DNA of 59,966 nucleotides, counting the filler, from Dimargaris cristalligena (Eukaryota), in assembly GCA_003614675.1 (NCBI GenBank). It is 4 parts of 4 records of this genome, joined end to end, with 100 filler letters (N's around TTAATTAATTAA, not from the genome) between each part and the next. Parts side by side here need not be neighbours in the genome. Positions count along the whole stretch, not along the records: positions 45,086 to 59,966 come from ML002926.1; 3 more parts are not named here. The stretch is one strand, 5' to 3'. The notes under the pieces were generated by a model. It made no database searches, was not told the DNA's origin, and worked only from the letters and a program-made list of their open reading frames with translations. Shown one piece after another: positions 11,587-59,966 of this stretch. The position numbers and the translations under genes were made by a program. The first letter of the stretch is position 1; each line of letters begins with the position of its first letter.

Positions 11587-14240
11587 TGAGGGTCGTCACC
11601 GATTCTTACCCGTATGTCCAATAGCCCAGCCGTAGGTTTCCCCTCGTCTCCTTTTATTATCAGTGAAATGGCATCCTTTTCATTTCTTTTTCCACCTTCA
11701 CGGACAATCCCGTCCACAAGGATTACTTCCGATTTAGTGTAGTTAGCCCTTTAGTCCATCTCCCAATGCTTTCGGTTGATTCATTAGTAAGTTTACGTCG
11801 CCACCATGCTGCGACTTCCCATTAGCCCATTCGGTAGTATGTTGTTATATTGTGTGTGTAAGCTATTTGGGTTTCTGTGAGAGACTGCCAATATATAGGA
11901 ACCAGTCACCAATCCAGCCATTATTCTCTATGCTTTGCGCAGCCAGATCCGGGAAAACCATCGTTATATAGTATGTTTGCTTACCGCCTCTAATGACCCG
12001 AAATACTTCACATCCCCATCATAGCCTGCCCATTCCTATTTTCTGTGCACTTTTAAACCCCAACTCTTAAGCCACTTAGTGCACTAAATAAATGTATTTT
12101 TATGAGAAAAATGGAGGGATCGTTATCATATTGATTTCAAAAATACTAGCTTACGAATCGGTACATATACCTATGTCTTTTTTTTTTCTTTCTGGTATTT
12201 TATGTTTTAGTCAATAGTTGCCTACTCAGCCTTTAAAGTGATATATATTGGCAGGGTCACTGTGTACCCGAGGGCAAACGTTTTCAGAGCAGGATGTACA
12301 GCTATAATTAGGGGCATGTAGCCCCAAACATTGTTCAGCACGTCCCAGTATACCACCACTTATATTTATGCACCAGATGCACTCAATTACCCGGTCATGC
12401 TATACCAAATTAATTACTGAATACCACCCGCTTACCCTTACATTTATAACCAGAGCTTACTGCCAGGTCATGAAACTCTCGTATCCTTGCATTCACTTGT
12501 ATTCTTCTTTGTTAAACCCTATACTAATTGCACTTATTATTATCATAGTTGGTGGAGGCATTCTTAGGAATAGGTATAGCCTTACTTTAAACGTCAAGGA
12601 TATAGTAGATGGACGAAATGTAATATTGGCCATACGCAGCTTATACCAACCACATGCCCATGATAGCGATACGAGCCCGGCTCTCCAAATTCTCTTACAA
12701 ACCTTAGACGCCGGGTCCGTGAGTGGGCTCATAAAATATGGGGCAGCACTGCTCTTCATTATTACCATCACCCAGCTCTTTTTGGGTGTACCTTCCTCAC
12801 CCTAGTCTAGTTGGCAGATTACTTTTTGGTATATTACCCCTCTCGCCTTCTGCACTATTCGGGTGAGTACCTCATCTCCACCAATCATTGTTTCCGCATT
12901 TCCTATGAGAAAAAGACCTGGAACTGTCAAATCTAGCTCTCAAAAACTTTTTTTCTAAAATGCAACTTCTCAGCCGATTATAGAGGCTATTCTGGGTCGG
13001 ATATACTACAATAAATCAGGCAAATTCTGTTCATTAAGTCAAGGGTGTTTGAGTCACTTCTGAATGATCACAATAGTCAACTTGAGGGAGGAAGGCACAT
13101 TGGCAGGGACCATTGGACTGGAGTTATTTGCAATCCTTAGATAGTAGGCAGTGCATAGACAAGGACATAAATGGGTGGAGGAGACAGTAACTTCATAAAT
13201 GAGAGAAATACAAACCTATTTTATGAGATGGGTCGAGTCCAGGTATATTACATATGGTGTGGGGTAATCTGTAACAGCACAACTTGGTATTTTGCTGTAG
13301 TTACTACCTACCCAGGTGCAGTTGGACCACATCACACTTCCTTTTGAAATTCCCGGAAATACAGGTATCAACAGTCAACCTTCTAGGCCAACCCTTAAAG
13401 GCCCATTTCATCAGTGTTGGCTATTATATCTGAGAGTCTTCAGGTCACCAGTAAAAACCATCCAGTGCTGCCTTTACTATTAGTTGTAGGTACATTCAGT
13501 ACAGTCTTTTCATGTATACTAAGTTTGGGACAATTTCCCATTTACAACTTATCTTATATTTATCAATTATTCAGCCACCCATCACTATGTGCTCACCATC
13601 AGTTAGTATCTCATGAATGGGTACCTCTCTTATAAAGATATTCCAACTGATTTCTAAAAAAAATTAGTTAGTAGTGAACCCTGGTCTTGCACTATCACAC
13701 CTAGTGGACTGCAGTAAAGATTCACAAGCAGCATATCACCTAATTAACCCAGACCCTATTTATTGTTACTAGTTAGTGGTAGATTAAGAGCTGGTATTGA
13801 CTAGCTAGACTATTAATTAACAACTATGTGTTTCAGCTATAATTGCAACTGCCCTTCACCATATATTACTCTAATAATATAGAAACAGGATATAGGTGAA
13901 TATTATATTAATGTATAAAACTAATAGTAATGGCATTGTATAGCCTCTATTGTCTGTGGTAATGATTTTTAGCTGCTGATTCCAATCAAGGTGTGCTGAT
14001 TTGAGAGAATTACACTATTGTATGATTTTAGATAACCCTCTATAGTCTATAATGGATTTACACCATTAATGAATAGCCCAAAGCATAATTAAACTGAAAA
14101 ATTGACATAGCTTTTAAACTATGTGAATATTTTAAGTATTTTAATAATCATGTTAACTATCCTTAGTAGGCAGTGGGTTATCTAGTGGTAGATCTTTCTA
14201 TATATGGGATATACTGTACCAGCTAATAGGAATTGCCTAT

Positions 14241-14755
14241 GGGGCTTAGGTTCAGCCAAGCAGGTCCTAGTGCTAGGTAAGGGCATGATATTAACTAATA
14301 AAGGTTTATTGCATGCAGGTATATGCAAGGGTTGTGCAGCAGGCACACTTACTAGTCAGTATAAAGGGAGTGAGTGTATATAACATTTATTGGAATAAAC
14401 TAAGGGGTCAGAATAAGCTAAGGAATTGAGCTGGTCCCAATGGGGGCTGGTTATATATATATAGGGGATGACTCTAAAGGGAGGTCCCTGGGGGAAGGTA
14501 CTACTAAACTGTAGTATATACCAACTAAATGGCTTCATATTAGGAAGGCTTTCATGGGAACCAGAAGAGTCTTTGGATTGGCAGGTTAAGTGTTTTGTGT
14601 AAAGTATTGGGGCCAGATGGAGAAGAGTTATATAATGAATAATGATCCCATTGTACCAGGGGTGACTATGGCACAATAAGGCCTAATAAGGGTGGATGAT
14701 CATTAAGTCCAGATTTAGGTCAGACTAGGAGGGCCAATAATAACATCCATTAATA
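14241..14755 (+). mobile_element. Degenerate LTR-like dispersed repeat, segment L, copy 1
   Basis: Aligns by eye with 58113-58634 and with the reverse complement of 44157-44672. Shared blocks include ATGCAAGG..GCAGCAGGCACACTTAC, GGGAGGTCCC, GATCCCAT.GTACCAGGGGTGACTATGG and AAGGCCTAATAAGGGTGGA. Central TATATA tract; no CpG. Confidence 0.75.
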
Positions 14756-14760
14756 ATAAA

Positions 14761-14972
14761 TAACAAGTATGTCACCCCTCCTAACCCGACCTAATCCATC
14801 CGCTAATGATTGCCATCATAGCAGGCTGTATAGCACCATATTGTACCCCCAGTCCTAATGGGGCCGGACATCATATATATCATCTTACTGGCCGGACCCC
14901 CCTGGAGTTTGCATTACTCACTCCTCTGGTGATCTTAGTGTCTTCCAGTTCCCATGGAAGCCTCCACTTGTA
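14761..14972 (-). mobile_element. Partial inverted copy of the same repeat, cut by the contig end
   Basis: 14776-14810 (CCCTCCTAACCCGACCTAA..TAATGAT) matches the reverse complement of ~14696-14733. 14941-14965 (TCTTCCAGTTCCCATGGAAGCCTCC) matches the reverse complement of ~14543-14568. Confidence 0.65.
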
Positions 14973-17022: not shown

Positions 17023-17026
<4 letters not shown>

Positions 17027-17471: not shown

Positions 17472-19478
17472 TCAAAGCTGCGCTTTAGCACCACTTTGGA
17501 ACAATCCCCGCATTTCCTCGGCCGCCTCTTCAAGACAGCCGCACAACTTAGTAGCCGCACCCTGACCCAGACCATCCGTGGGACAGGTAATATTAAAATG
17601 CAGCGAATCGTCCTTGATCATATAGGCCAGGCCAAACCCATCGGGAACGACTTCACCGTAGCCCCAGCCGTCAAAGTGCTTGCTGCTAAGCTGGGAAGTC
17701 GACAGGTTCCAGTGGCACGATTTAGCGAACACCGGGTCTTGGAATAGGGCCGGCCGTTCTTCGCCGGGCTTGAGGCACATGCGGAGTCCGAACAGGTGGC
17801 GGTCCACGCCGCGACCCTCGGCGGCTTCCTTCATGTAGGCCGAGTGGGCGTTGATGGCCACCCGGGCCAGCTCCAGTCGCTGGGCCGCCGGAGTCGACGA
17901 AGAGGCCATGGCGTGGACCCAGGCCACCGATTCATTCGATACACTGCGGCACACTTCGGTACGGCCCTGGGCGAATTTGCGGGTTTGAACGGATTCGTAG
18001 GTGGCATTGCAAACGCCGTACATTTTATAGTAGGCCAACTGCATCAGCATCTGGACGTAGGAATCGGGACTGGCCCGGAATGCCTTGATCAGGTTCTTGC
18101 CATAACCCTGGTAGGCCAGCACCCGAAGCTGGTGATTATCAATCATTCGATCAAAATCACGGCCGGCCTGGTCAATGGCCTGGCGAACAGTAGCGTCAAA
18201 GTGGAAATCCAACCGGTTGGGCTGGGCCAGCGAAGTACCAGCAGTGGACACCGATGGGGAAGAGGTGGCTTGCTGGTAGTTTTGCGGAGCATGGTCCAAA
18301 ATGTAATTACACAGACGGCTGGTGGCAGTACCGTCCATACCGGCGTGCTCACCCAGGAACCCAGCCTTGCCATTATCGTTCACAATAAACTGGAGCGACT
18401 TATCGTAAAAACGGTTGCGGCCATCACCATGCCAGCAGGTGCGGCTATGGGCATCGCGGGTGGAGGGAGTGGTGTCGTCTAGGCAGATCAGATAGGCCGA
18501 ACCTTCGAGCTGTTCCAGTAGAGTAACGTTACGGACGTCCGCGGCCAGGAGACTGGCACGGTGAGTAGCCCAACTGTCCCGGTTCTGGGAGGTTAGCACG
18601 CCCAGGGCGGGCGTGGTCCCTGCCGAAGGGGTCGGTTTGCTTTGGTCAATGATACGCTGGAACTGCGTTTCCCATTCGGCCAGAGTCAAAGGGCGGCGGG
18701 ATCCATCGGCGTTGGTATGGAGAGTGGGGATAGTGTAGAATTGATTGCGACGCACCACGGCGATATGTTCATTGTGACTGGGCGAATAATTCCGCAGGTA
18801 ATCGACATTGGGGGCGGGAATGCGGCAGGTGTTGAACATATTCTTGTAGGAAGCCATACACAGCGGTTGCTTGCGGATCGCCTCGGGGCTTAGGGTCTCA
18901 TTAACCACTTGCTCACGGAACATCTGGGCGGCGAAAGCGATATCGGCCGCCCGCTGGGCCGGGCGAGAACGAGCAACGTCGTCCACAAAGGCGTAAAAAT
19001 AACTGACGAAAATCACCACGGGGTCGCGTACCCGCAGATAGGCAATATCATTCCACCAATCGGCCAGCCAGTTGGGCATGCCTGGTTGCTGGGCGCGGGC
19101 CAACAAACGCTTCTGTAACACCTGGCCTTCGGGGCTGGCGATGAATTGCTCGACCACCTGCCGACTTTTAGCAAACTCGGGCTGGCTGAGGAATGGCTGA
19201 ATAGTTTGGATGTATTTACGGCCCGTTTCGTCCAGGCTAGGGACGGGCAGGTGGGGCAGTTCACCTTGGTGTTGGTAGAGGGGGCGAGGTGACTTGCCCC
19301 CCGCCGACTGGGGATTGGCGGTGGTGGAGGCCGAGGGAGTAGCGGGCTGGGTCATGGCGGAGTAGAGGCGGAGGTTTGCCAACCGCGGGAACGTAGGTGG
19401 GGCAGGGAAAGTGGGGCGGCGAGGAGCGCAACGGGCCTGGAGCGAAAAGCGGGTAGTTGGGGTGCGCAACAAAGACAT
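17472..19478 (-). CDS. CAT2: Carnitine O-acetyltransferase (mitochondrial/peroxisomal)
   Basis: 668-aa intronless ORF with LPHLPVPSL, NWLADWW, NRFYDKSLQFIV, catalytic EHAGMDGT, TYESVQTRKFAQGRTEVCRS, GRGVDRHLFGL and GYGEVVPDGFGLAY. Arg-rich N-terminal presequence; C-terminal -KAQL. Confidence 0.95.
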   Translation of the reverse strand: MSLLRTPTTRFSLQARCAPRRPTFPAPPTFPRLANLRLYSAMTQPATPSASTTANPQSAGGKSPRPLYQHQGELPHLPVPSLDETGRKYIQTIQPFLSQPEFAKSRQVVEQFIASPEGQVLQKRLLARAQQPGMPNWLADWWNDIAYLRVRDPVVIFVSYFYAFVDDVARSRPAQRAADIAFAAQMFREQVVNETLSPEAIRKQPLCMASYKNMFNTCRIPAPNVDYLRNYSPSHNEHIAVVRRNQFYTIPTLHTNADGSRRPLTLAEWETQFQRIIDQSKPTPSAGTTPALGVLTSQNRDSWATHRASLLAADVRNVTLLEQLEGSAYLICLDDTTPSTRDAHSRTCWHGDGRNRFYDKSLQFIVNDNGKAGFLGEHAGMDGTATSRLCNYILDHAPQNYQQATSSPSVSTAGTSLAQPNRLDFHFDATVRQAIDQAGRDFDRMIDNHQLRVLAYQGYGKNLIKAFRASPDSYVQMLMQLAYYKMYGVCNATYESVQTRKFAQGRTEVCRSVSNESVAWVHAMASSSTPAAQRLELARVAINAHSAYMKEAAEGRGVDRHLFGLRMCLKPGEERPALFQDPVFAKSCHWNLSTSQLSSKHFDGWGYGEVVPDGFGLAYMIKDDSLHFNITCPTDGLGQGAATKLCGCLEEAAEEMRGLFQSGAKAQL

Positions 19479-22119
19479 GGCAGGCTATTTAGTTGTAGGT
19501 TGGGGGGGAGGGAGGCGAGAAGTCCGTGGCCCGGAAATAGGAAATAGAAATCAAGGTTATTAGTAAGCCGAGTTGCAAATGGTGGACTGAGCGGGTAATT
19601 GCCGGATACTAGGGTAAGGGCAGGGTTAATACGCCGGGCAATGAAGCAACAGGTAGGAATGAGCAACAATCGATTGACCCTTGTCAATGAGGAGACTGGG
19701 TGGGTGGTGGTGTAACTGTCAAGAAACTGGGCCAAGGGCGCAGGCAGCGAAAACGATGTTATTCGAAAGAGAGCAGGAAACTCGGGGAGGCTGGGGTTTT
19801 AGAGGGTAAACGAGCAAACCACTTGGAGCATGGGCCATATAATATATCTCTACGCCTAATGATATAAGGGTCGCCAACTCGAAGCAATGAAATGCCATAA
19901 TATTTTTCGTATTGGGAAAATGCCAGTGTGCACAGCACCACCAGCTCGGGGCAGAATGATTGGCCTCCTTCCTCTATCCACAGCTCCGTGACGCCAATTC
20001 CCAAGTCCTAGAGTCTCGGGAGTGTATGCCGGGGTGTAGTAAATGGAAGAAGACACGGGAAGGATATTTCGATATGCAAGTGGGGCGCCAGATGACCAAA
20101 CAGATGCACAAGACCCACCGCACACCCATACTCCTCATTGATTTTGCAAGGATACCAGACCAGCCGCATGTGTCAACCCGGGAAATGAGGAGCCGAAACT
20201 TGAGTTTTAACCTGCAACCCCTTCATGCACAGGCTAGTCCCTCAAACCAAACAGCTGGGGAATATATAAATAAATGGTCGCCGTCAAAAGCCAGGCCCGG
20301 GTGATGGAATGGGGGTAATATTATTAGTGGTAATAAATCATACTTACCCTAAGCGGCACGAAAACTTTAGAGAGTTATGGCGAGGGTAGAGCCGAAGACG
20401 AGGAATGAACAAGGGAAGGGAGCTGTGGCCAGAAGGAGTACAGTATATAATAAATGGATAACACAAAGTGAATGATGGTATAGAGAACGGGTATAACTAC
20501 TAGAGACACAAACGAGAGTGTGAGGAGGGGGGAGAAGGAGGATTAAATAGCATCATGGTTGGTGGTTCTTCTTGAAGGGAGAGGAGTGGATTGACACGAG
20601 CAGCCAAAGAGCACGAACCCTGCCCGGGTCTGGTTGTATGCTATATGCTACGGAAGAGTAGAATAGAGTGGTGTACTTTATCTTTGGCTGCTCACCTAAT
20701 CTCTCTCTCTCTCTCTCTCTTCGTGATTCGGCTGGGGCCCCCGTCGTTAGGCAGCGGCCTGGCTTTTCCTTTCCCCGTCTTGTTCCCTCCGTTCCCGGCG
20801 AACATAAGAGACGCCGACTCTCTCGGTAGATTAATGCTTTGGGCCCATTAGCTTATCATCATCCCACGAAGCTCAGCAGGTCCACTCTATCTATTGGAGC
20901 GATAGATAAACACCACTTAATGCCTTTACACTCACCTACCTGCCCTATGGAATCGGACGCGTGACAAACCCCATTTTACCTAGGAATATATATAATACGA
21001 ACTAGGATTCTGATTGGCATGTGAAGTCCCTGGCTGGCCGGCGTCACATGTCGGGCAAATAGAGGAGGTAGTATAAGGTAATTTGCTCAGGCCTACTGCA
21101 CATATAGAAATTATCCACATCACCAATAAATAGCCGGTGGGTGTGGGGGCCCTTATTTGTCGCTTTTGGGCAGTCTCATTTTATTAGGAGAGAGGTACGC
21201 GTAACGTCCTGACCTGACCAAGTCCCACCCTAATTATATAAGAGGCACATTGGTAAAAATGATTCCACATTTCCGAAGACCCAAGGAACATGGGCGAAGC
21301 GGATGGCGGCAGTACCTGCCAAGCAGTCGTTGGACCCGCCGCCGGTTTCGGACTCCCAAACCTCCCTGAATACCGGTGGTTTCACACTGTGCCCTACTCA
21401 CCCTGACCATATTCGGAAGACCAGCCAAGCGATTGGAAGGGAATATATATGATCGTATAATAGGAAATATAGATGTGGAGGGAGTAGTGGTGGAAAAATC
21501 ACAGCATAAAATCTGGTCAAGCCCATCCACGATAAATAGGGCCGGTACCATTTTCTATATAGGGTGTGGTCCAATTAAGCCCGTGTTCTATGAAAATCGA
21601 CCGGTGGTTGCTACTACCACCACACGTGCACACCCACCTATCGAAATTCAGGCAGTGCTGCGTCGTGAAAGCAATAGTTTAAGTTCCCTATTGTTTTCCA
21701 TGGGAAATTCTGGGCAGAAATGGCCATAAGCCCCCGCAAGCTAAAGGCGGGGGATCAACCCTACCACTCCCGGCCTATCACACTGCATCGCTTCCCTTGC
21801 TATTATCCTCCCCCCTTTCTCCCTTAGATGGCTTGAATATCCCCCTCCCCTTTTATACAGTGTATGTGTATTAATTGGCCCCGAACTTTCTAGTACTAAC
21901 GAATTCTAGTTCAGCCTAATGCAACTGCAGTCAGCACCATTGGTTCCAATTCTCTCTTAGTATACTGTCTGTTGTATTGCTTACTACTGGTCCTTTCCTT
22001 TGTTATCGGTTTCCTACATCCGCTACTTTATTCCATCCGGCTTTTATATAAAATACTAGTTGTTTTTTTTTGTATTACCACAGCCCCTCTCCTCACCCAC
22101 CCCATTGTTCAACTCCGCT

Positions 22120-30001: not shown

Positions 30002-30101
30002 NNNNNNNNNNNNNNNNNNNNNNNNNNNNNNNNNNNNNNNNNNNNTTAATTAATTAANNNNNNNNNNNNNNNNNNNNNNNNNNNNNNNNNNNNNNNNNNN
30101 N
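30002..30101. other. Artificial contig spacer (44 N + TTAATTAATTAA + 44 N)
   Basis: Same structure as the other two spacers. The VPS8 ORF is cut here and does not continue on the other side. Confidence 0.97.
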
Positions 30102-43059: not shown

Positions 43060-44156
43060 ATGCAGCCAGGGGTGTTGTCTGTATGTGTGTGGGGGGAGGG
43101 CGAGGAAGAAGGCAAAATGGAGTCACGGTTCTCCTCGCCTTCTTATATCATGGTGCATTTCCATGTTCAGTAGATCGATTTAGTCATCCACGATTGGACT
43201 ATCATTTGATGCGTTTATTACCATTCACAAAACTATAGTTTATGCCTTATATTGTGCCACCTTTATTTTTAACTACGCTATAAATGTGGTGTTTACTGTT
43301 CAATAAGCCACCTCCTTCTTATTTACATTAATTTATGTACGATTTCTGTCTTTTTGGTGTTAGCGAATTAATTCCATAGTATCAGTTCCAAAAGGTGAAA
43401 CTCGTGATAATACTACCCTAATTTAGTGCTACGGTTGAATATGGGAGTAGTTCAACAAGGCTGTATAACGAAAAATCCATTTGATGAGGCAAATACTACT
43501 GGTTGAAAATAAACATCCCGCGGATTTTCCCATACACATATCAGTTAAACCCTTATACAGCCAAGTTGAACTTCACCCATATTATGTTTTTTTACGTTTC
43601 CCCTATTCGCACCCCTTTTATGCCAATCATTTTTTTTCCTCTCGCTACCTTGCGTTTATATTCTTTATATTACCTTCTCCATTCTCTGTATATGCTTTCT
43701 GGAACATTATCCATGATTAGTTTTCTTGTCGTTTATAATCCTATATATATATCTCCGCTTTCCATATTTTGACCGCCATCTTGAAGACTTAACATTACCC
43801 CTCATACATATATACATAAACTCTCCATGGATTAGTATTTCACTTGTTGATCTCCATTCCAACCGGAGCCCTTTTGTCTGTCATAGCTGTACCCAGCACT
43901 GCCTTTGGCCTATAGGTGATACTACTTCGCCCCTCCTAGCATTCCTCTCACTCACTCATAAGCACAGTCATAGGTAATAATTTCAGTAATGACTGAAATA
44001 TCTACACTTAGGATAAGTAACAGGAAGTAATACATAAGGTGATATGGTAAAGGGCACTTTGTAGATAGTTGATAAGGTATACCTTGTTAGTATGAGTTTG
44101 CTAGTAAGTGGTGGTATCCAATAATTACTAATCAGCTAAGGAGTAACTATAAGGTC

Positions 44157-44672
44157 TGTCATGGATGTTAGCCCACCTAATCTAACCTAAATCTAGACTT
44201 AACAATTGTTTGCCCTTATTTAGCCTTAAAGCACTATATTTACCTTCCCCTAGTCATCCCTGGTACTATGGGATCCTCCTTTATCATATAACCCTTGCCT
44301 CCTTGACTCCAGAATCCACCATTCACTCCTAGGCTAATCTAATAACTCTTCCAGTTAGTTCCCAGCTGAGTCTTCCATACCCTACACCATCCAGTTAGCT
44401 AGTTTATCCATTAGTAGTCCTTAGTAGTATCTTCCTCTAGGGACCTCCCTTTGGAGTAGTCCCCTATATATATATATAACCTGGCCCTAATAGGACTAGT
44501 TAGTTTCTTTAGCTTATTCTTACCCTCATAGTTTACTCCAAAAAACTCAAAATACACTAAACCCAGAGTATTAACTGGTAAGTATACTACTGCATATCCC
44601 TTGCATCTACCTGCACCTACCCTTTATTGATTAGTACTATGCCCACCCTAACACTAGTGTAGTAACATGGCC
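44157..44672 (-). mobile_element. Degenerate LTR-like dispersed repeat, segment L, copy 2
   Basis: The reverse complement aligns with 14241-14755 and 58135-58634. The left end reads TGTCATGG (like TGTCACGG after CpG decay). Strongly TpA-enriched, with no CpG from ~43930 to 44671. Confidence 0.75.
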
Positions 44673-44985
44673 CGGGGATCTGGGAGGGTTCAGCGTAGCC
44701 CTATTGGGTTGAAGGGCACCAGACTGTGAGGAGGAGGCCAGAAACAACTGTTCAAGTGGAGAGTGGGGACGGGATAGAGAGGGTGGAGGAGACACCTCTG
44801 GGCTCTCAGTGAACTGATGCTTTGAGCGGAACATAGGGTTTACTTAAATCAAATAACTATTATAAAAATTGGTAATTTGTTTCGTTTTTTAAGAAAGAAT
44901 GAAATAATATTTATATATATATGTAAATCTAACTTAAGGACCGTAGCTACTTTTCCTTAGCTCTTCGACGGCCTTGTAAAATTAA

Positions 44986-45085
44986 NNNNNNNNNNNNNNN
45001 NNNNNNNNNNNNNNNNNNNNNNNNNNNNNTTAATTAATTAANNNNNNNNNNNNNNNNNNNNNNNNNNNNNNNNNNNNNNNNNNNN
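44986..45085. other. Artificial contig spacer (44 N + TTAATTAATTAA + 44 N)
   Basis: Same 100-nt structure. Confidence 0.97.
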
Positions 45086-45440
45086 TAAGCCGTGCCTACC
45101 ATTAGAAGCCTATCCTTGGGACTCTTGATGGACTAAGAGTAGTTAACCTGGGTGATACTGGTAGTCCTGGGTTACTTAATATTGATAGCTGGAAATATTG
45201 GGGCCCTTGGTGGTGTTGCTGGTTTTGATTAAGTTTAGAATAAGCTTGCTTTAATAAACTTAGTGGCTTAGCTGTTGGGGGCTTCATGGGGTCACTAGGT
45301 ACTTGGGGATTAGGGGTTAGGGGTTAGGGATTTGTGTAGGGCTGCTGGGAGGATTGTAGGACTGGTCCTGAGGATGTCCTGGTGACCTGGGACTGGGTAT
45401 AGGTACTGCTGAAGTTTGTGGTTCTTAGGGAGGTGGCATA
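45086..45440 (-). mobile_element. Fragment of the same repeat family (segments A+B) at contig start
   Basis: Reverse complement of ~45157-45440 aligns with 58666-58935. Reverse complement of 45086-45160 aligns with ~58045-58120 (ACTCTTAGTCCATCAAGAGTCC..GGATAGGCTTCTAA). Confidence 0.75.
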
Positions 45441-46234
45441 ATAATATAAACTTCAATTAAATATTTTGTTTTGGCTGTAATTAAATCATGTAATAAATTG
45501 GAAATTTGGGAGGATGGTTTAATATGAGAGGCTCCACCAGGGTGAATAGGTAAAAATTTACCAGATGAGGCAACTATTTCTAGAAAGAAAGTAATATCCT
45601 GTATATTTTCCTAAACACATTTTATGTAGACCTATATGCTGCCGGACTGAATTTCGGCCATATGCAGCATCAAGATTTATTAGCCCAGCCATTTATTCTT
45701 GCATATTTTGAACATCACTGGCTTTTAGTTAGCTATATTTCTTTGTAAAAACCAACCTAATCCACCCCTATAAAATTATATACATGCTGTTATCGCAAGG
45801 TTTAATGACCTATCCATTGGTGCTGAAATTTATTATATTTATGTTGGTTCCAAAGGCGTAGACCAACTTCCAATGTCATTTTAGCAGCTATTGAGAAAGG
45901 GGGAGGTGGGGCCATCGTCCATTAATGGAAAAATATCTAAAAATCCAGGTTTAGTATTTATAATGGAGTCTTGCACAGAGTAATACCACGGTTTATAGAC
46001 TATATGTAGAATTTAACATTGCGCAAAGTATGAAAATAGAAATAGCGAGGTATTTATTTTTAACCAGCAATACCGGCCTTACCCAGCGGGGTCTACTTGG
46101 TGCAACCGAATTGAGCCTCACCCCCTATCGCTACAATCACCGGACGCCCCACCCTTCGTTGATTTACTCCACCTCTTCCTATTCCCACTTTTCTAGCCAA
46201 GGCTTATCTCCATGATGGATTCATGGTTGGACCA

Positions 46235-52010: not shown

Positions 52011-54249
52011 TCAAGGTGGCGTTTCAGTCAAGCAGCAGCTCTCTGGTCTTTACAGTCTCCGTGTCGCGAATGGTTATGTCCGGCGCCCCATTGTTAACCA
52101 GCGTCTGGGGATATATATAGCGGCCGCCGGGGGGTTTTTCTCTCTTTTCCACACCCACTCTTGCGATAGATTCATTTCCCCAGTTCACAGTTGGGCCGTA
52201 GTGCTACTGCACGATGGCCCAGTTTTCCGTCCTTTCCGCGTACCTTTGCGATGAACCACTGTTCCTTCCCGGAGCTCGTGCAGCAAGACTATCGCCACGG
52301 TGTAGACTATTCTAACTGCGTTTTGCCCTACTACCCCCCTCCTTCTCTCCCACTCTCGCCATTCACTCACTACAACTCTGTTATTTACCGACCGTACTGA
52401 CTGGATTCCCGTCGGTTCGGTTCGGATCGGGATTCTTTTAACTACCCCTCTATATGCATGCATATACCCACCATACTATGCCAATGGCATTCTTGTTATT
52501 AGTAGTAGTATTTCTATTCTCTGTCCTAGTCCGACATTCATCCCATACCCTTCCTCTGCTTTGGATTCGAGTTCATTGTAGTGTTTTTCCCCCCGTTTCG
52601 TTTCGATTTTGTCTATCGAGTTTCGCATCGTCTACACTAGCTGGTGGTTGGGGGGGGATTAAAGTGCTACCCCTCACATACCCCTTGGTTTGGGCCACGC
52701 TATGAAGCACCCTGCCTCTAGATCTGGACCAGACTGTCCTTGCCTAGTTCCCCCGCCCATATCTAATTCCAGCGATCGTATCCATGGTGGTTTTTCTCTA
52801 CATAGTCACTGCCACTCTCGATGGCCCCTCACTCCCTCTATCGAATTATCCTTGATTCTCAGTAACGATGGCTCATTGCTTCCACTGTACCCATGGCTAC
52901 AGTGGGTTTATATTCCTTTTAGTTTAGTCTCATGCTCTATACGCCTACGATAACCATATGCTAGACCATTGGTGGGTAGGTTGAATACCCTACCCTACCC
53001 CACCTCAACACCCTACTCCTTTAATGTTAGTTGTCTTCCTGTTTTATTCTAATGGCTAGATCCCAATAACATCGCTGTACTAATAGTATAACCGACACAT
53101 ACCTAAATAAATACCCAAATTTGTCGAACACTCAAGCAGTAGTATCCATCCCCCGGGAGATTTCGCTAGATTCGGTACTATTCAGCCATCGGCCTATAGA
53201 GAGGCCGCTTTAGTCTGGCATACGTATAGGAACATCTTGGAATTATAGCAGACTAGCCGGGACTCTCCTGCTAAGTATGGGTTAATGGATTTTGCCTTGA
53301 CCTATTTCACTACTTGGCTTTTCTTCCCAGAACAGTGGTACCGAGAGCCCTAGTGCATCTGTAATGAGGTCATTTACTATATCCCGCCCACTGCTATTGG
53401 CATGCATTCACTGTGTGGCTGTGTTACGTTGGCCAACATCCAGGAACTCTTGGTGAGCCGTGGTTTTCCGCCGGCTTTTCAATCAGCGTGTCCCCCGATT
53501 TGAGACCATGGGATAGTTCGGTCCTAACATTCCGTCACGATGGCCTTTAATTCCGCGCTCCCTATCCTATTTCTGCTCATTAACTCAATTACCCGTGGTT
53601 ATTAGGCCCGTAGCGTTGCTTTGGTTAGACTGGCCCAAAACTGGGCCGTTGCCCCTGAAATCGCCCGCGATAAAGGTGTATGTCACACCCCTGTGCGTAT
53701 TAGTTAATGACACCGAAAATTGGACCAGTTCCCGCCGCCATGGTCTGCGTCACGGCTTGGCTTGGCTAGCCACCAGATTTTCCACACTAGATCCCTGCAA
53801 GGTTCTTTTGAGAGTTCTATAGTTGGTCTTGGGACCCCCTCACCAGCCGGCGGGGGTTTCTCCCCTGGTTCCCGCTATTTTTCTGGTAATGGTTTCCTCA
53901 CTCCATGATTGACCCCCCCCTTTATTTGTGCGCGGGGTTACACCCGCTTCAAACTGGCTATTCCTTGTCCTCTCTTCCTTCTATTTCAAAAGTTCTCCGT
54001 TGTCCTTAGTTTGATACTAGTTTCTCATCTCTATTTTATTTTTTATTTCATTCCCATTTCTTACTTTGTATATTTACTTATAGGCTTAGCAGTTTATCCG
54101 CACTTCTCCCTAGACTTAGTTACCTGTTCTTTTTTTCGCCACTCCCCCTACTCTCGCTCTCCTTGTTAGATTGCTTCAGCTATAGTTATTTTCTACCCAC
54201 GTCGCCCGCCTTATATTATCCCCCTTATCATGTACTAATATTACCAACT

Positions 54250-55905
54250 ATGGCCGCTGAGTTAACCCGTAAATTAAGTCGCCGCGTCGAACGCCGTTAC
54301 TCAGTGAAGGCCGTGTCCGACGCCTTTGTAGAGTTTGAAACGGTACTTCAACATCCTCATACCACTGCCCATGAGCCCTACCGGATCCTCGATGCCTGGG
54401 TCAAGAACATGGATGCCCAATTCTCCCTGAACGGGGGTTTCACCAACCCCGACTGTCCCCACGCCTTTCTGGTTCTGCTGGAATCCCCGTTTTTCGAACT
54501 CAATGTGCCCACTTTTGTGAGTTACATCTTGGCGTTTTTTCAACAAAAGGTCACCCGTCGGATGGCCTGGGTCTTACACCTCCTTGCCCTAGGCACCCAG
54601 TCCCTCGTTCCCGAACTGCTCACCCTGTTAGTTGACCATTCCGCTGTAGCCCGGCTAAAAACGTACATCACCCGGGACTACGACCGGTCACTCAAATTTC
54701 CCGCCTTGACCTTACTCACTAGCCTGTGTCTGGAAAAAGTACTGCCCTCGGCTGATTTTGATGGCCTCGACGAAAACTTTATTGCTTATTTATTATATAT
54801 GATTGAAAAGTCGCGCTTCTCCCACGAGCAAATTAACGAAGCTGCGTCTAAATTAATACTGGCCTTGCACCACCAGTGCGGACGTCGACCCCTACCGAGG
54901 GGACCTGTCATGGTCCGGTCTGTGCAAAAACCGACGGCTGTCGCTGAGCCAGTGATTGTGGGGACCAATGGTGGGGGTACTATGCCCAGTCCAAGCCCCA
55001 GTCCCAGTCCCACTCCCCCTGCTTCCGCCCCGGCGCCATTGGTCGAAAACGGAACCCACCATCCTTCTAAGAAAAGGGCCCCGCCTGTGGTTCCTCGTAG
55101 ACGAGCCCCTCCGTCTCAGCGAATGGTCCCATCCCATTCGGATGGCTCCCGCCCCTGTCCTACACCACCCCTACGACGCCCCCCGCCGCCACCTACTCCC
55201 GTCAAATCGACGGCCGATGTCGCTGCCCTTGCTTCCCCTCCCGTCAATGGTACCCCCATGTCTCAGCGCTGCGTATCGGCGTCCAATTCCCCATTGCAGC
55301 CACCTCTGCAGTTAGTAATCCAGACTCTATGCCGAGAACGGGACAGCTGCCTCACCTTTTCCGAAAACCTCATCTTTATGTTAAATCGTGAAAGTAAGTA
55401 GTACGTGCTTCCGGGCCCAATTCGTCTAATAGAGACCCCTCTTTGCCAACTGATCATCCTTGCGATGGATTGTCATTCGTTCGTCAGTGTATTAACCCTC
55501 TCCACCTGTTGTTTTGAATCATCCAATCTTCTTCCCAATCTAGGCGATCGTGAGACCATCATTTCTATCCTTAAATTTATCACGGCGCTATTGACCACTC
55601 CTGGAACCTTTACCTTTTTCTTCACCAATGACCTTAATGTGCTCATTGATGTGATCATTCGGGAGCTTTACAATCTGTCTTGCGACGCGGATGCCCTCCG
55701 GACGGCTTACCTGCGACTCCTGCCCCCTATTATCCTCAACACCCAATTTACGGAAACCCGCCATAAGGCGGCCCATTTGGCTACATTACTTCGTACCTTG
55801 GCTAGCCGTGCCAGTTTGGCCGCCGTGTCCTCCGAAATGCGCCGTTTAATTGTCCATACGGTCAAACTTTGTGAAGACCCCTTGGCCTACGGACCCCTAC
55901 TTTAA
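54250..55905 (+). CDS. LDB17: Ldb17/Dip1/SPIN90-family Arp2/3 activator (DUF2013), 2 exons
   Basis: Exon 1 54250-55393 (donor GTAAGT), exon 2 55544-55905. Motifs KLILALHHQ, TFSENLIFMLNRE, FFFTNDLNVLIDVIIRELYNL and LRTAYLRLL..NTQ. Confidence 0.85.
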
Positions 55906-58044
55906 TATCCGAGAATGCCTTATTTTTTTAATAGTAGAAAATATGGTTTTCATTGAGGGTATGCCTGCACCTCTCCCTTCCCTTTAATTTTCGTGGATGG
56001 ATGTTGGGTAGGTGTGGCACGTTTAGGTAGAGAGCGTATACTATCTTTTTTTTTTCTTGCAGAACCAATTAATAAATTACTGTGTTGTTTTGTATTTTAT
56101 AATATCATTTCCCTAGTGACATCAAACCGTTATCACCGGTTTTCCGTTTCCCTCACCGCTTGCCAATTAATGGATCATTACACTTTGGTAAATAACTCGG
56201 ATGATTACTAGATTAAATGGGCCACTGATATACTAATCCTGAAACAATAAGGGTAGTTACAGTGGTCAATTGAGGGATATGCAGCTATTATACCCTGGCA
56301 TGTTGTTTTTAAAGGGTAACTGGGCTGATTCTTTTTTATTTTCCGCCTACAGAATAGAGGGATCGCCTCGCCAATGTGCTAAACTATTTATGCCAATGTA
56401 GACCTAATAATGATACGAATCGCCATTAGCTGAACCGGGATCTAGGCAACCCGATTTGTGGAAGATGTCTACATTTCCCTCAACCTCATTATATAGTATG
56501 GTTAGATTACAGTCGACAGACTCCGTGCCATGCAGGTGTGGAGTGAAGCAGCCTTCTGGTATCTTGGAGTAAACATACTCGCTGGATCCCCGTTTGGCCT
56601 GAGTCCGCTTCACAGTTGGTGTTTTCAGAGACTTCTCGGTACCAAGTCTTCGGGATAAACGCACCGAGCCCCCCCTGGTCAGTCGAGCTATGTGGTCCCC
56701 ACTTAAAGATTATAGGGGGTCCCAATAATCCGTGTAAATGACCGTAAACACAGTATTCTATTATGTCTTGGACTAGGGTTGTTGCTGAAAGACCATTACG
56801 CCTTTAGGATATCGTTGGTTTGTTCATATGTCATTTTATGTTACAGTCTCTGATGGGCTATTATATAACTATTAAATGGCATGGTAAGGAGGCCAACTCC
56901 TCCCCTCCCCGCAAATTGAAAACCTGCCCTTAAATATACACTATTAAACTATGGTCATCGTCCGTATTTTCCATAGTCTGAGCCCCACAGTAATTACCCC
57001 CCTCTGGCTCCCCTAGGGACTGATAGCCTTTATCCCGACCATGTTTACATATAGTAATATAACCTTACCCCTTTAGTTTAGTATCCAGCACCAAGGCGTC
57101 TCTGTATATATCTAGGCATCCACCCTTGAGTACTAAATCCTTATCGGCGGACGCCCCGGGGGTTTTTAGCACTTCTCTATTGGAATCTTGTGTGATATTT
57201 AAAGAGTTGGCTATTGCTATGGTCGGAACTACAAATGGTCAATGTTACCAAAGTAATGAAAAATAGAAATTAATAGATATGAATTAGTCACTGCTAGTTA
57301 GTTAATTTTTAAGGCAGCCATACACCTACTGATCACTCCTGACCATTGGCGGGGCTGTCGAAGCTTTGGCATAGCATCAATTTATGGAAGTGCCTGGCCT
57401 CACCATGGCATGTACAGCATATGCACGCAACAATGGTTAAACAGAGCTGAATCGATGGCGTGACCAGATAAAAATAAACCAAGTGGTGTACTCATTGCCA
57501 TAGTCTCAGTGAAAATAATCCGGGTTTTCATGATCGACATTAGAGAAGATAGCCGAACTCTCTCTCTCCATATATATATATGTTTTGGCTGGTCCCGCCC
57601 GACATAGATCTTTTATTTTACGGCACCACTTGCCGAGTGTAGCATGTTAATTAAAGATGGGACATATCAACAAAGATTCTGTCATTGGTGTTTAATATTG
57701 ATAGATGGTTATTCGTTTTTTTAATCTGGCCGAACTTTTAGTCACCTGCACTCAAAATCACTATTTTTAGTAGATCTTTGATCCGTAAACTCAATTTATG
57801 CCATCTCATATTAACCATAAACGTACTAAAATAATAAGCCCCACTCCCTAGAGAAACCTGGATTAGTAGGCCATCCAAGACGAATCTTGTTCACACCACT
57901 AGGGAGTAAATATGAGCTCCAATGTATATCCACATGGCATTGAACTCCATGACCCTGAAATGGGTGGGATACTCTGAACATATGAATATGTTATTGGATG
58001 GCTACTCAGGAGTGCCTTACCAAGCTCCATCTACATACTATGCT

Positions 58045-58634
58045 AATATCACCTGTGAGTTTACCACTCTTAGTCCATCAAGAGTCCTGGGGATAGGCTT
58101 CTAACAGTAGGCGGGGCTTTAGACTCGGCCAAGTGGGCTACTAGTATTAGGTATGGGGCACAGTACTAACCAATAAAGGCCTAGGTAATTAGGTATGCAA
58201 GGGATATGCAGCAGGCACACTTACGGGTCAGTATGAGGGGGTGAGCATATATGAAGTTTATTGGAGTAAACTAGGGGGTAAGAAATATGCTAAGGCATCT
58301 AACTGGTCCCAATGGGCCCAGTTATATATATGTGGGGATAACTCCAGAGGGAGGTCCCAAGGGAAGACTATAGGTAACTAAGGTATATAGTAAGAATAGG
58401 CCAACCAGATGGCTACTAGTATCTGGAAGTCTCTCAGGGTAACCAGAAGAGTCCTCAGATCAACATGCTGAGTGATTAGTGTGAAGAGCTGGAGTCTGGA
58501 AGGGGAAGGGTTATGTGATATATGGTGATCCCATAGTACCAGGGGTGACTATGGGAAGGTTAATGTAGTGCTATAAGGCCTAATAAGGGTGGACAGCCTG
58601 GTATCTGGATTAAGGTGGATTAGAAGGGCTGACA
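58045..58634 (+). mobile_element. Degenerate LTR-like repeat, segments B+L, copy 3
   Basis: 58045-58120 matches 45086-45160 (reverse complement). 58113-58634 matches 14241-14755 and 44157-44672 (reverse complement). Confidence 0.75.
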
Positions 58635-58665
58635 TTATGTTGCCCAATATCATAACAATTGATAT

Positions 58666-58935
58666 TGTACCACCTCCCCAAGAACTACAAACTTCACTAG
58701 TACTAATTCCCAGGCCCAGGTCACCAGGATATCCTCAAGACCAGTCTGGTGATTTCCCCAGTCATCCTGTAGGAATCCCCAACCCTCAAGTACTGAATAT
58801 TCCCATGATGTCCCCAGCAGCTAAGCCACCGAGTTTATTAGAATAAACTTATTTGGAACTCAATCAAAACCAGTGATGCCACTGACATCCCCAACATTCC
58901 CAGCCAATAACATTAAGTGACCCAGGACTACTAGT
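58666..58935 (+). mobile_element. Segment A of the same repeat family
   Basis: Begins TGTACCACCTCCCCAAGAACTACAAACTTC and aligns with the reverse complement of ~45157-45440. Confidence 0.7.
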
Positions 58936-59966
58936 GGTTATTCCAACAATGGTTTCAAGACCAACTACTGCTTTCCACTGCCACTAAATACCCTAACCCC
59001 TTGATTTATTTCCTGACATAAATAAGGGGTAATCACCCATCTTTAATAAACCAGACTTTGATGCCCTGTTTCTTACCCTTGAGATAACTGATTCTTTTAC
59101 CAATTTTTACCAGACAATTATTACTGTTAAAACTCTTATTCTAACCATTCTTCTGTCATTGCATAAAATTGATAGTTGTGCCAATCATGTCTAAAAAAGG
59201 AAATGTATTAAATTGCAGGTGGTAAATGTAGATAAGTGATGATTTATTAATAATAGTTGTAGGTAGTTTCCAGTATGACCCTAGTTATAATGATTGCTTT
59301 TAAAAAGAAAATAGGAAAGTTGGAGTTAGGAGAGGAATTGCCATTCACCCTGTGGGGAGTGGCCAGATTATATATGTCAATTGTTACTAATTATTACTGC
59401 TATAACTACATAGCTCCTCAATGAGAGGCCATTGTGTCACTGAGGTATGTGGTCAGAAAGTCTGCTACTCTAATAGAATATAAAGAATTGAAGAAATATA
59501 CTGGAAATAACGATTTGATTCCTAGAGAAATTAAAAAGCTCTTGGAGTCTGTCCTCTTTTGGAGGGAAGGTCCGAGACCGAAGAAAGTTAGATGTAGGAA
59601 TTAATAGGGTTACTAAGGCCATGCTGGTCTGGCCACAACAGTACTATTGTGATATAGCCAAATGGCTATAGTAGTATTTACCATTTTCTTATTTATTTTT
59701 CCTCTTTTATTGAAACCACCATCCATATTTAGGTGATTAGTTAAAGAATTGGTGCTGCTAGCCTAAGTTTTCCCTTTTTATAAGTTATTATTGTTATACA
59801 ATAATTATATATTTATTTCTAATTGGATTATTTTTCTGAGTACTACATTTATACCCTTGCTGTACTCTATCAACAAGTATCAGCTATTCCTTAACCTATT
59901 ATAAGTTCATTTATACCTTTTATTCTTTTGTTTTTGTTATACCAATGGGTATAACTTTAGCCTTAA

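What the first reader, a model, noticed from the sequence alone, without database searches (positions are those of the whole stretch)
58045..58935. RIP-like CpA-to-TpA hypermutation between repeat copies in an apparently early-diverging fungus
SEEN: in well-aligned blocks the copies differ almost only by changes that create TpA. (1) 58666 TGTACCACCTCCCCAAGAACTACAAACTTC vs revcomp 45411-45440 TATGCCACCTCCCTAAGAACCACAAACTTC: 4 of 4 differences are CA/TA or TG/TA. (2) 58909 AACATTAAGTGACCCAGGACTACTAGT vs revcomp ~45157-45183 AATATTAAGTAACCCAGGACTACCAGT: 3 of 3. (3) 58201 GGGATATGCAGCAGGCACAC vs revcomp 44582-44600 GGGATATGCAGTAG-TATAC: three CA to TA. (4) GGATATCC vs GGACATCC, AACTCAATC vs AACTTAATC, GGGCTGACA vs GGGCTAACA. 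TG-vs-CA pairs (CAGTGATGCC vs CAGCAACACC) show extra decay of ancestral CpG. Each copy carries its own hits, on both strands. KNOWN: CpA-to-TpA in repeats is the hallmark of RIP in Pezizomycotina (RID/DIM-2 dependent), and CpG deamination alone cannot give CA/TA differences. INFERENCE: if this organism is non-Dikarya, the pattern implies either a RIP-like defence or heavy non-CG (CpA) methylation of repeats with deamination, which I do not know to be described for such lineages. The blocks were picked by eye, so the proportion may be overstated.
Basis: partly seen in the sequence, partly recalled or inferred. Interest (0 to 1): 0.78.

Follow-up and report, generated by a model that had tools for sequence, protein, structure and literature searches.

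The report
CpG-stripped, CpA-mutated repeats in Dimargaritales fungus
Copies of a very abundant non-coding repeat in an early-diverging (Dimargaritales) fungus have lost nearly all their CpG sites and also carry a moderate excess of CpA-to-TpA changes, which looks like decay of methylated repeats and only weakly like the RIP genome defence of ascomycetes.

Summary
The quoted blocks are real, but "almost only TpA-creating changes" is overstated.

Within the finding's coordinates, 25 of 96 mismatches are clean CA/TA differences. Another 17 are CpG-type, 15 are CY/TY and 21 are transversions.

After normalising for opportunity, C/T differences are 2.3 to 5.8 times more likely before A than before C or T. 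A context-free null with CpG decay reached 3 in 0 of 400 runs.

Against the majority of laid contigs of the same organism, 15 of this copy's 23 C-to-T-type changes are at CpA and 0 at CpC.

The stronger signal is CpG loss. CpG observed/expected is 0.0-0.1 in sharply bounded repeat blocks and about 0.9 elsewhere.

A CAT2 tree places the organism in Dimargaritales, so it is non-Dikarya.

My best reading is repeat-targeted cytosine methylation with deamination, mainly at CpG and partly at CpA. A true RIP-like mutator is not excluded. Methyltransferase genes and 5mC could not be tested.

The parts
58059..58640 (+). Copy C of the high-copy non-coding repeat (segments X 58059-58119 and Y 58113-58635)
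   Evidence: blastn to copies A, B and D at 72-85% identity. Summed contig depth is about 40 to 280 times that of the unique flank. There is no ORF of 90 aa or more, no tRNA and no Rfam match above the gathering score.
58663..58935 (+). Segment Z of copy C, a lower-copy repeat adjoining X-Y. This is the core of the finding.
   Evidence: 72.5% identical to 45157-45443 on the minus strand. Depth is about 12-22 times that of the unique flank in run X1.
45157..45443 (-). Segment Z of copy D
   Evidence: Z is followed directly by X here, so Z and X-Y are separable units found in both orders.
45087..45147 (-). Segment X of copy D, cut off by the contig end
   Evidence: 85% identical to 58059-58119. 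It abuts the linker at 44986-45085.
44161..44658 (-). Copy B (segment Y) on the third contig. It is the most CpA-to-TpA-mutated copy.
   Evidence: TpA/ApT is 1.66 and the composite RIP index is 0.90. Private CA>TA changes are 8 of 21 against 6 of 65 at CC+CT.
14241..14750 (+). Copy A (segment Y) on the first contig
14769..14963 (-). Inverted partial copy, head-to-head with copy A at the contig end
   Evidence: 61% identical to 58428-58635 on the opposite strand. 14546-14963 is self-complementary at 59%.
57882..59966 (.). CpG-poor block with 7 CpG in 2085 bases. Its left edge coincides with the rise in repeat depth at about 57998.
   Evidence: CpG positions and depth bins.
12999..14786 (.). CpG-poor block with 2 CpG in about 1.8 kb, containing copy A
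43929..44672 (.). CpG-free block containing copy B. CpGs resume in the 44673-44985 flank.
45092..45642 (.). CpG-free block containing copy D
44986..45085 (.). Artificial contig linker (N44-TTAATTAATTAA-N44). The same linker occurs at 14973-15072 and 30002-30101.
17472..19484 (-). Carnitine O-acetyltransferase (CAT2) reading frame, used to place the organism
   Evidence: Pfam PF00755, E = 8.7e-199. Best named hits are Dimargaritales at 59-62% identity. Tree.

Best explanation
These are decayed copies of unclassified, non-coding interspersed repeats: an X-Y unit of about 580 bp present in very many copies, and an adjoining Z unit. The host is a Dimargaritales fungus (Kickxellomycotina, Zoopagomycota).

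Inferred mechanism: the repeat blocks are targets of cytosine-5 methylation. Deamination of 5mC has removed almost every CpG, turning it into TpG or CpA. More slowly, it converts CpA/TpG to TpA, because methylation or the associated mutagenesis also reaches CpA. The per-site order CpG > CpA > CpT > CpC fits this.

Shown here:
- the repeat nature and high abundance of the elements;
- the sharp, repeat-confined loss of CpG;
- the 2.5- to 6-fold excess of CpA-context C-to-T;
- the taxon.

Inferred, not shown:
- that 5mC is present;
- that CpA is methylated;
- which enzyme acts;
- that the CpA bias is absent from unique DNA, for which there is only compositional support.
For: CpG loss
- CpG o/e is 0.00-0.09 in the four copies and 0.06-0.21 in the 1-kb bins of the repeat blocks. 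Elsewhere it is about 0.6-1.1, including AT-rich unique intergenic DNA.
- CpG positions stop and resume sharply at 12998/14787, 43928/44673, 45091/45643 and 57881. The 57881 edge matches the jump in contig depth at about 57998.
- TG-vs-CA double differences, which mark independent decay of an ancestral CpG, number 3-11 per pair.

CpA excess
- C/T over (C/C+C/T) is 0.42-0.60 at YpA against 0.17-0.31 at YpC/YpT in the four large alignments; the 78-column X alignment gives 0.50 against 0.00-0.09.
- Polarised three-way count: CA>TA 16 of 113 against CC+CT 22 of 367, p = 0.009.
- Per-copy odds ratios are 3.3, 6.1 and 3.4.
- C against D gives an odds ratio of 5.0, p = 6.6e-5.
- The null simulation reached 3 or more in 0 of 400 runs.

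Comparison with the rest of the family
- 1917 contigs (X1) and 3327 contigs (X3) at 80% likeness or more were laid on 57500-59966.
- Among the 39 best-supported variant places inside the repeat, 23 are C-to-T-type changes private to this copy: 15 at CpA, 3 at CpG, 5 at CpT and 0 at CpC.
- The expected CpA share is 0.315, binomial p = 9e-4. Per-site rates are 3/20, 15/238, 5/260 and 0/238.

Composition
- Despite the loss of CpG, CA and TG o/e in the repeat blocks (1.03, 1.00) are no higher than in unique low-GC DNA (1.00, 0.98), while TA o/e is higher (1.21 against 1.08). This fits onward flow from CA/TG to TA.

Literature (passages seen)
- 5mC is confined to transposons in early-branching fungi (PMC12695648).
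- Transposons are CpG-methylated in Rhizophagus (PMC8647823).
- A DIM-2 homologue is reported in the early-diverging Phycomyces (PMC13297926, PMC7862722).
- Dim2-dependent CpA-to-TpA mutation of methylated repeats occurs during mitosis in Zymoseptoria (PMC8016269).
Against: - No methylation data and no methyltransferase gene could be examined, because no genome is held for this window.
- The CpA excess rests on four or five copies in the window plus 39 listed places. 527 further variant places were not shown, so their contexts are unknown.
- Strict maintenance CpG methylation would not explain CA/TA differences, so an extra assumption (CpA methylation or a methylation-linked mutator) is needed.
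- In Zymoseptoria the Dim2-linked mutator spares CpG (PMC8016269), unlike here.
- Copies differ in load: private CA>TA is 8 of 21 in B against 2 of 14 in C. An episodic, copy-directed process would also produce that.
- There is no neutral-divergence control in unique DNA, only dinucleotide composition.
Confidence: 0.5

Rival explanations
1. A true RIP-like genome defence. A RID/Masc1- or DIM-2-type enzyme recognises duplicated DNA and actively converts C to T, preferring CpA, in discrete episodes such as around zygospore formation. CpG loss would come from the same process or from added methylation.
For: - Changes are directional. Copy B has 14 private C-to-T-type changes at clean sites and 0 T-to-C-type changes.
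- Apart from CpG, the context order CpA > CpT > CpC is what I recall for Neurospora RIP; this comes from memory, not from a call.
- Mutation load differs between copies. The composite RIP index is 0.90 in B, 0.63 in D, 0.06 in C and -0.11 in A.
- Hits occur on both strands and are private to each copy.
- Composite-index signals, and proteins with RID-like domain architecture, have been reported for Entomophthorales, also in Zoopagomycota. The authors attach caveats (PMC11105155, passages).
- Reviews citing Bewick 2019 say RID evolved before DIM-2 within the DNMT1 lineage (PMC13297926, passages).
Against: - Transition/transversion ratios are only 1.1-3.3 in the window alignments apart from the 78-column segment X (6.5), and about 3.3 across laid contigs: 354 against 104 places in X1 and 361 against 111 in X3.
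- Repeat GC (0.40-0.47) is not lower than that of unique intergenic DNA, and (CpA+TpG)/(ApC+GpT) is 1.11-1.25 in copies A and C.
- The family still exists in very many contigs at 80% likeness or more, so amplification was not stopped efficiently.
- A kingdom-wide k-mer screen found RIP-like enrichment only in Ascomycota and lists the one Dimargaritales genome it includes as 'no_rip' (PMC12543289: abstract, section 9, and supplementary file 12).
- No RID homologue has been shown for this lineage.
Confidence: 0.25
2. A general, methylation-independent neighbour effect on mutation in this organism, in which CpA/TpG is intrinsically more mutable. It would be visible in repeats only because they evolve neutrally. 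CpG loss would be a separate phenomenon.
For: No neutral-divergence control in unique DNA could be run, so repeat-specificity of the CpA bias is not directly shown. The bias is moderate (odds ratio 2.3-5.8), not extreme.
Against: - Unique low-GC DNA of the same window shows no sign of such a bias at equilibrium. CA and TG o/e are 1.00 and 0.98, above AC and GT at 0.88 and 0.89. TA/AT from the o/e values is about 0.96, against 1.17 in the repeat blocks.
- CpC shows 0 of 238 against CpA 15 of 238 in the family-polarised set. From my recall, that spread is larger than ordinary non-CpG context effects.
Confidence: 0.15
3. Chance, block selection or alignment artefact at about 70% identity.
For: The alignments contain many gaps (37 to 72 gap columns). 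Segment Y has poorly aligned stretches.
Against: - The direction is the same in all five pairwise alignments and in all three polarised lineages.
- The 5' neighbour shows no consistent effect.
- The null simulation reached an odds ratio of 3 or more in 0 of 400 runs.
- The independent comparison with the laid contigs agrees.
- Misalignment would dilute a context signal, not create one.
Confidence: 0.05

Closest known systems
Repeat-induced point mutation (RIP) of Neurospora crassa and other Pezizomycotina (RID-dependent, premeiotic)
   Same: C:G-to-T:A changes in repeated DNA with a preference for CpA. Hits are private to each copy and fall on both strands. TpA is enriched.
   Different: - Here the bias is 2.5- to 6-fold, not near-exclusive.
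- Transversions make up about a fifth to nearly a half of differences.
- The repeats are not AT-rich relative to unique intergenic DNA.
- CpG is the most depleted site.
- The organism is a zygomycete-grade fungus.
- RID, premeiotic timing and dependence on duplication are all untested.
Dim2-dependent mitotic CpA-to-TpA mutation of methylated transposons in Zymoseptoria tritici (PMC8016269; abstract and passages of section 11 seen)
   Same: C-to-T at CpA in methylated repeats without meiosis. It links non-CG methylation to a RIP-like signature. This is the best mechanistic model for the CpA part.
   Different: In Zymoseptoria more than 98% of the C-to-T changes were at CpA and CpG was spared. 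Here CpG is nearly eliminated. No Dim2 homologue was examined here.
CpG methylation of transposons with CpG decay in early-diverging fungi and other eukaryotes (PMC12695648, PMC8647823; passages seen)
   Same: Repeat-confined CpG depletion (o/e about 0.1 against about 0.9) and TG-vs-CA double differences.
   Different: CpG-only maintenance methylation does not predict the CA/TA excess.
Composite-RIP-index signals in Entomophthorales (Zoopagomycota) (PMC11105155; passages seen)
   Same: A claim of RIP-like composition outside Dikarya, in the same phylum.
   Different: That evidence is window composition only. Here it is alignment-based and context-normalised, for a different subphylum, and on a far smaller sample.
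CpG-biased 'RIP-like' hypermutation in Basidiomycota such as Microbotryum (recalled; Hood et al. 2005 seen only as a citation)
   Same: C-to-T in repeats with CpG involvement outside Pezizomycotina.
   Different: From memory, the target there is TpCpG. No consistent 5' neighbour effect was seen here.

Membership tests
Canonical RIP (RID/Masc1-dependent) | Differences between repeat copies are overwhelmingly C:G-to-T:A transitions | tested here: not met
   Transition/transversion ratios are 1.1-3.3 in the four larger alignments and 6.5 in the 78-column segment X, and about 3.3 across laid contigs. 21 of 96 mismatches between C and D are transversions.
Canonical RIP (RID/Masc1-dependent) | Preference for CpA (CpA-to-TpA) | tested here: met
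   Odds ratios of 2.3-5.8 against CpC+CpT. 15 of 23 polarised C-to-T-type changes are at CpA, against an expected share of 0.315. The null reached 3 or more in 0 of 400 runs.
Canonical RIP (RID/Masc1-dependent) | Compositional indices: TpA/ApT high, (CpA+TpG)/(ApC+GpT) low, composite index above 0, AT-enrichment | tested here: inconclusive
   The composite index is 0.90 (B), 0.63 (D), 0.06 (C) and -0.11 (A). Repeat GC of 0.40-0.47 is similar to unique intergenic DNA.
Canonical RIP (RID/Masc1-dependent) | Restricted to duplicated DNA | tested here: inconclusive
   CpG loss is sharply repeat-confined. For the CpA bias there is only a compositional contrast with unique DNA and no divergence control.
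Canonical RIP (RID/Masc1-dependent) | RID/Masc1 homologue present; acts before meiosis | not testable with these tools
   No genome is held. Bewick 2019 is not held.
5mC-driven decay of methylated repeats | CpG depletion confined to repeats, with TpG/CpA products | tested here: met
   CpG o/e is 0.12 in repeat blocks against 0.82 in unique low-GC DNA, with sharp boundaries. There are 3-11 TG/CA doubles per pair.
5mC-driven decay of methylated repeats | 5mC present on the repeats; C5 DNA methyltransferase encoded | not testable with these tools
Dim2-type mitotic CpA mutator (Zymoseptoria) | C-to-T at CpA while CpG is spared | tested here: not met
   CpG is the most depleted dinucleotide. The per-site rate is 3/20 at CpG against 15/238 at CpA.
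Dimargaritales (taxon) | A conserved protein groups within the order, away from Dikarya | tested here: met
   CAT2 is 59-62% identical to three Dimargaritales genera and at most 53% to all others. The clade has SH-aLRT 100 in a 25-row quick tree from one gene.

The most novel reading that the evidence does not exclude
A repeat-directed cytosine mutator with CpA preference, mechanistically related to RIP (a RID/DIM-2-lineage enzyme), operates in Dimargaritales. RIP-like genome defence would then predate Dikarya and was missed by k-mer screens because it is weak or ancient in this lineage.
Probability: 0.2. Interest if true: 0.8.

Novelty: new member of a known kind. Interest (0 to 1): 0.5.

Why it matters
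RIP is treated as a Dikarya, essentially ascomycete, invention. A 2025 kingdom-wide screen found RIP-like signatures only in Ascomycota and scored the one Dimargaritales genome it includes as 'no_rip' (PMC12543289).

An alignment-based, context-normalised CpA-to-TpA excess in a Kickxellomycotina fungus suggests that methylation-linked or RIP-like mutagenesis of repeats reaches further down the fungal tree than composition screens detect.

The question is directly testable with data that already exist publicly: all family copies, the DNMT repertoire, and nanopore or EM-seq methylation calls.

The robust part, repeat-confined CpG loss, is expected biology for early-diverging fungi. It gives indirect evidence that this lineage methylates its repeats.

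Tried and rejected
A genome-wide RIPCAL-style count and a search for RID, DIM-2, DNMT1 and DNMT5 were therefore impossible.
- A scan of metagenome contigs for a conserved 25-nt motif of the repeat found 0 matches.
- Earlier findings of this scan gave nothing by place, by words or by sequence.
- Bewick et al. 2019 is not held, by DOI or by PMC id. What I say of it comes from reviews.
- The repeat has no tRNA, no Rfam family above the gathering score (one chance-level hit, E = 0.78, in the flank) and no ORF of 90 aa or more. It has no terminal inverted repeat. It stays unclassified.
- APOBEC-type or UV-type explanations were rejected. Both are defined by the 5' neighbour (recalled). No consistent 5' neighbour effect was seen, and CpC has 0 of 238 hits.
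- No CWG or other trinucleotide specificity showed up when I read by hand the third base of 14 of the 15 CpA hits listed (the 58874/58875 pair left out): CAA 6, CAC 3, CAG 3, CAT 2. The sample is too small for a test.
- Strand clustering of hits in segment Z is 8 C-to-T against 3 G-to-A on the plus strand. The C-rich plus strand explains this, so I did not use it.
- Searches for prior reports of RIP-like or CpA-biased mutation in Dimargaritales or Kickxellomycotina found only the kingdom-wide screen and the Entomophthorales paper.
Full report
**What the window is.** The 59,966 bases are not one locus. Three identical linkers, each N44-TTAATTAATTAA-N44, lie at 14973-15072, 30002-30101 and 44986-45085. 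They split the window into four pieces of about 14.9-15.0 kb of slowly decreasing length, which are separate contigs of a draft assembly. The reading frames are fungal: Chs7 chitin-synthase export chaperone, Vps8, RasGEF, an ADA2-like protein, carnitine acetyltransferase and a mitochondrial IF3-like protein. Coding regions have GC 0.55-0.61 and intergenic DNA 0.37-0.45.

**Taxon.** The CAT2 frame (17472-19484, minus strand) is 62, 60 and 59% identical to proteins named as Tieghemiomyces parasiticus, Dispira simplex and Dimargaris xerosporica. It is at most 53% identical to every other named hit among the 120 listed. I built a quick IQ-TREE tree from 25 of those 120 rows, chosen by me to span the phyla. 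The window protein falls inside the Dimargaritales clade (SH-aLRT 100). That clade is sister to Kickxellales plus Harpellales (95), and Pezizomycotina form a separate clade (100). This rests on one gene and a quick search, and the careful search did not finish. I did not determine the species.

**The repeats.** blastn within the window finds five pieces:
- copy C, 58059-58935, plus strand, with segments X 58059-58119, Y 58113-58635 and Z 58663-58935;
- copy A, 14241-14750, plus strand, segment Y;
- copy B, 44161-44658, minus strand, segment Y;
- copy D, 45087-45443, minus strand, with Z followed directly by X and then the contig end;
- an inverted fragment, 14769-14963.

Because Z precedes X in copy D and follows Y in copy C, X-Y and Z are separable units.

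**Abundance and class.** When contigs of two public runs of the same organism were laid on 57500-59966 at 80% likeness or more, 1917 (X1) and 3327 (X3) contigs were placed. Summed depth rose from about 990-1380 in the unique bins 57583-57997 to as much as 308,587 in 58081-58163. It was about 13,000-25,000 over Z in X1. A second high-depth block lies at 59575-59966. The tool warns that summed depth is not a copy number, so I read it only as 'very many copies'. The repeat region has no ORF of 90 aa or more, no tRNA and no Rfam family above the gathering score. It is an unclassified non-coding interspersed repeat. In a published annotation of one Dimargaritales genome, almost all repeats are 'Unknown' (2.11 Mb of 30.65 Mb; PMC12543289, supplementary file 2).

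**Checking the observation.** The quoted blocks are exact. Over the whole C-against-D alignment there are 96 mismatches:

| Class | Count |
|---|---|
| CA/TA | 25 |
| In TG-vs-CA doubles | 16 |
| CG/TG | 1 |
| CY/TY | 15 |
| Transitions whose neighbour also differs | 18 |
| Transversions | 21 |

There are also 37 gap columns. In segment Y, transversions are 49-76 of 147-163 mismatches. 'Almost only' is therefore an effect of block picking. CA/TA is the largest single class, not the only one.

**Is the CpA excess real?** I normalised by opportunity, counting sites on both strands whose 3' neighbour is conserved.

| Alignment | C/T over (C/C+C/T) before A | Before C | Before T |
|---|---|---|---|
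| Z | 0.50 | 0.17 | 0.23 |
| A against B | 0.60 | 0.20 | 0.22 |
| A against C | 0.42 | 0.17 | 0.31 |
| B against C | 0.53 | 0.17 | 0.18 |

- My arithmetic on these counts gives odds ratios of 2.3-5.8. For C against D (Z plus X) the table is 25:25 against 15:75, an odds ratio of 5.0 with p = 6.6e-5.
- The 5' neighbour has no consistent effect.
- With a majority-rule ancestor for A, B and C, CA>TA is 16 of 113 (0.142). CC>TC is 10 of 190 and CT>TT is 12 of 177 (p = 0.009). TA>CA is 20 of 291, which may include parallel CA>TA changes in two copies.
- Per copy, CA>TA against CC+CT is 4/16 against 6/66 in A, 8/21 against 6/65 in B (p = 0.004) and 2/14 against 3/64 in C. The direction is the same in all three, but only B is individually significant.
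- I ran a null simulation starting from unique DNA of the window, with context-free substitution and about 97% CpG decay to 71% identity. It gave a median odds ratio of 0.99 and a 95% range of 0.50-1.86. It reached 3 or more in 0 of 400 runs. It had no indels and no realignment.

**Independent polarisation from the family at large.** One search listed the 40 best-supported variant places, and 527 more were not shown. One of the 40 lies in the unique flank. Of the 39 inside the repeats:
- 23 are places where this copy has T or A and most other contigs have C or G. By context they are 15 CpA, 3 CpG, 5 CpT and 0 CpC. One of the 15 is the 58874/58875 TG-vs-CA pair, which could equally be counted as CpG-type.
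- 8 are the reverse.
- 8 are transversions.

The available sites are 238 CpA, 20 CpG, 260 CpT and 238 CpC, so the expected CpA share is 0.315 (binomial p = 9e-4). The per-site order is CpG 0.15, then CpA 0.063, then CpT 0.019, then CpC 0.

Over all listed and unlisted places, the change classes are 354 transitions to 104 transversions in X1 and 361 to 111 in X3.

**The stronger signal: CpG loss.** CpG o/e is 0.00, 0.00, 0.06 and 0.09 in copies A, B, D and C. It is 0.06-0.21 in the 1-kb bins of the repeat blocks and about 0.6-1.1 everywhere else, including AT-rich unique intergenic DNA. CpG positions show sharp edges:
- dense up to 12998, then 2 CpG until 14787;
- dense up to 43928, then none until 44673;
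- one at 45091, then none until 45643;
- dense up to 57881, then 7 CpG in the last 2085 bases.

The last edge matches the depth jump. TG-vs-CA doubles number 3-11 per pair, which shows that some CpGs decayed independently after the copies separated. In the pooled CpG-poor blocks, CA and TG o/e (1.03, 1.00) are no higher than in unique low-GC DNA (1.00, 0.98) although CpG has gone. TA o/e is 1.21 against 1.08. This fits onward flow from CA/TG to TA, but the original composition of the elements is unknown.

**RIP indices.** TpA/ApT is 1.14-1.66 in the copies, but the whole-window baseline is already 0.96, so the usual threshold is uninformative. (CpA+TpG)/(ApC+GpT) is 1.25 (A), 0.75 (B), 1.02 (D) and 1.11 (C). 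The composite index is clearly positive only in B (0.90) and D (0.63).

**Interpretation.** The data fit repeat-targeted cytosine modification with C-to-T decay, strongest at CpG and weaker at CpA.

Known biology that makes this plausible:
- 5mC is confined to transposons in early-branching fungi (PMC12695648, passages).
- Transposons are CpG-methylated in Rhizophagus (PMC8647823, passages).
- Reviews citing Bewick 2019 report DIM-2 homologues in early-diverging fungi (PMC13297926 and PMC7862722, passages).
- In Zymoseptoria, a functional Dim2 drives C-to-T specifically at CpA in methylated repeats during mitosis (PMC8016269, abstract and section 11 passages).

A true RIP-like process is not excluded. 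The directionality, the CpA > CpT > CpC order and the unequal load between copies all fit it.

Arguments against canonical RIP:
- the low transition/transversion ratio;
- the lack of AT-enrichment;
- the primacy of CpG loss;
- the persistence of very many copies at 80% likeness or more;
- the published k-mer screen, which scores the one Dimargaritales genome in its data set as 'no_rip' (4 k-mers enriched in non-coding DNA and 0 in repeats; PMC12543289, supplementary file 12).

That screen requires more than 2-fold k-mer enrichment in repeats (section 9 read), so a bias of this size could escape it.

The only earlier suggestion of RIP in Zoopagomycota that my searches found is the composite-index result for Entomophthorales, which its authors hedge (PMC11105155, passages).

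**What remains open.** These points could not be tested here because no genome is held:
- whether the CpA bias is absent from unique DNA;
- whether 5mC exists on these repeats, and in which contexts;
- which C5 methyltransferases the genome encodes;
- whether the mutations arise in bursts.

The sample is small: four to five copies and 39 listed places. Supplementary tables of PMC12543289 were searched only for one species code. Bewick 2019 and its tables, which may list the DNMT genotype of this order, could not be seen.

**Verdict.** I rate it a new member of a known kind, with interest 0.5.

Noticed in passing
window 14973-15072, 30002-30101, 44986-45085: Artificial linkers (N44-TTAATTAATTAA-N44) join four contigs of slowly decreasing length, about 14.97 to 14.88 kb. 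Any feature that seems to span them is an artefact of concatenation.
   Followed up: yes
window 14546-14963: Two copies of the repeat lie head-to-head and form a degenerate palindrome (59% self-complementary) at the end of the first contig. Three of the four contigs end or begin in this repeat family, probably because the assembly breaks there.
   Followed up: partly
window 59575-59966 and 59134-59647: A second high-depth repeat reaches the contig end. Several laid contigs join about 59114-59163 directly to about 59647-59650. So the low-depth, still CpG-poor stretch 59160-59574 is absent from other copies and may be an insertion or a low-copy piece.
   Followed up: no
window 43433-43582 and 45516-45663: A weak direct repeat (67% over 150 nt) lies in flanks that still contain CpG. 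It looks like another low-copy repeat next to the CpG-free blocks.
   Followed up: no
window 58066-58085 (also in copy D, 45121-45140 region): A 6-bp inverted repeat with an 8-nt loop sits inside the best-conserved, highest-depth segment X. It is conserved between copies C and D. It might mark a functional end of the element.
   Followed up: no
window 16994-17028, 24025-24059, 5220-5254, 44463-44496, 14452-14463: (TA)n microsatellites recur in intergenic DNA and inside the repeat copies. They inflate TpA counts locally and should be masked in any RIP-index scan.
   Followed up: no
window 54010-55401 (+) and 15021-15887 (-): These are long open frames of 463 and 288 aa with no Pfam family at E of 0.001 or below.
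   Followed up: no
window 57728: In the unique flank, run X3 (a different study) reads A where the window and X1 read G. This hints that the two studies sequenced slightly different strains or alleles, which could serve as a control for the mutation spectrum of unique DNA.
   Followed up: no
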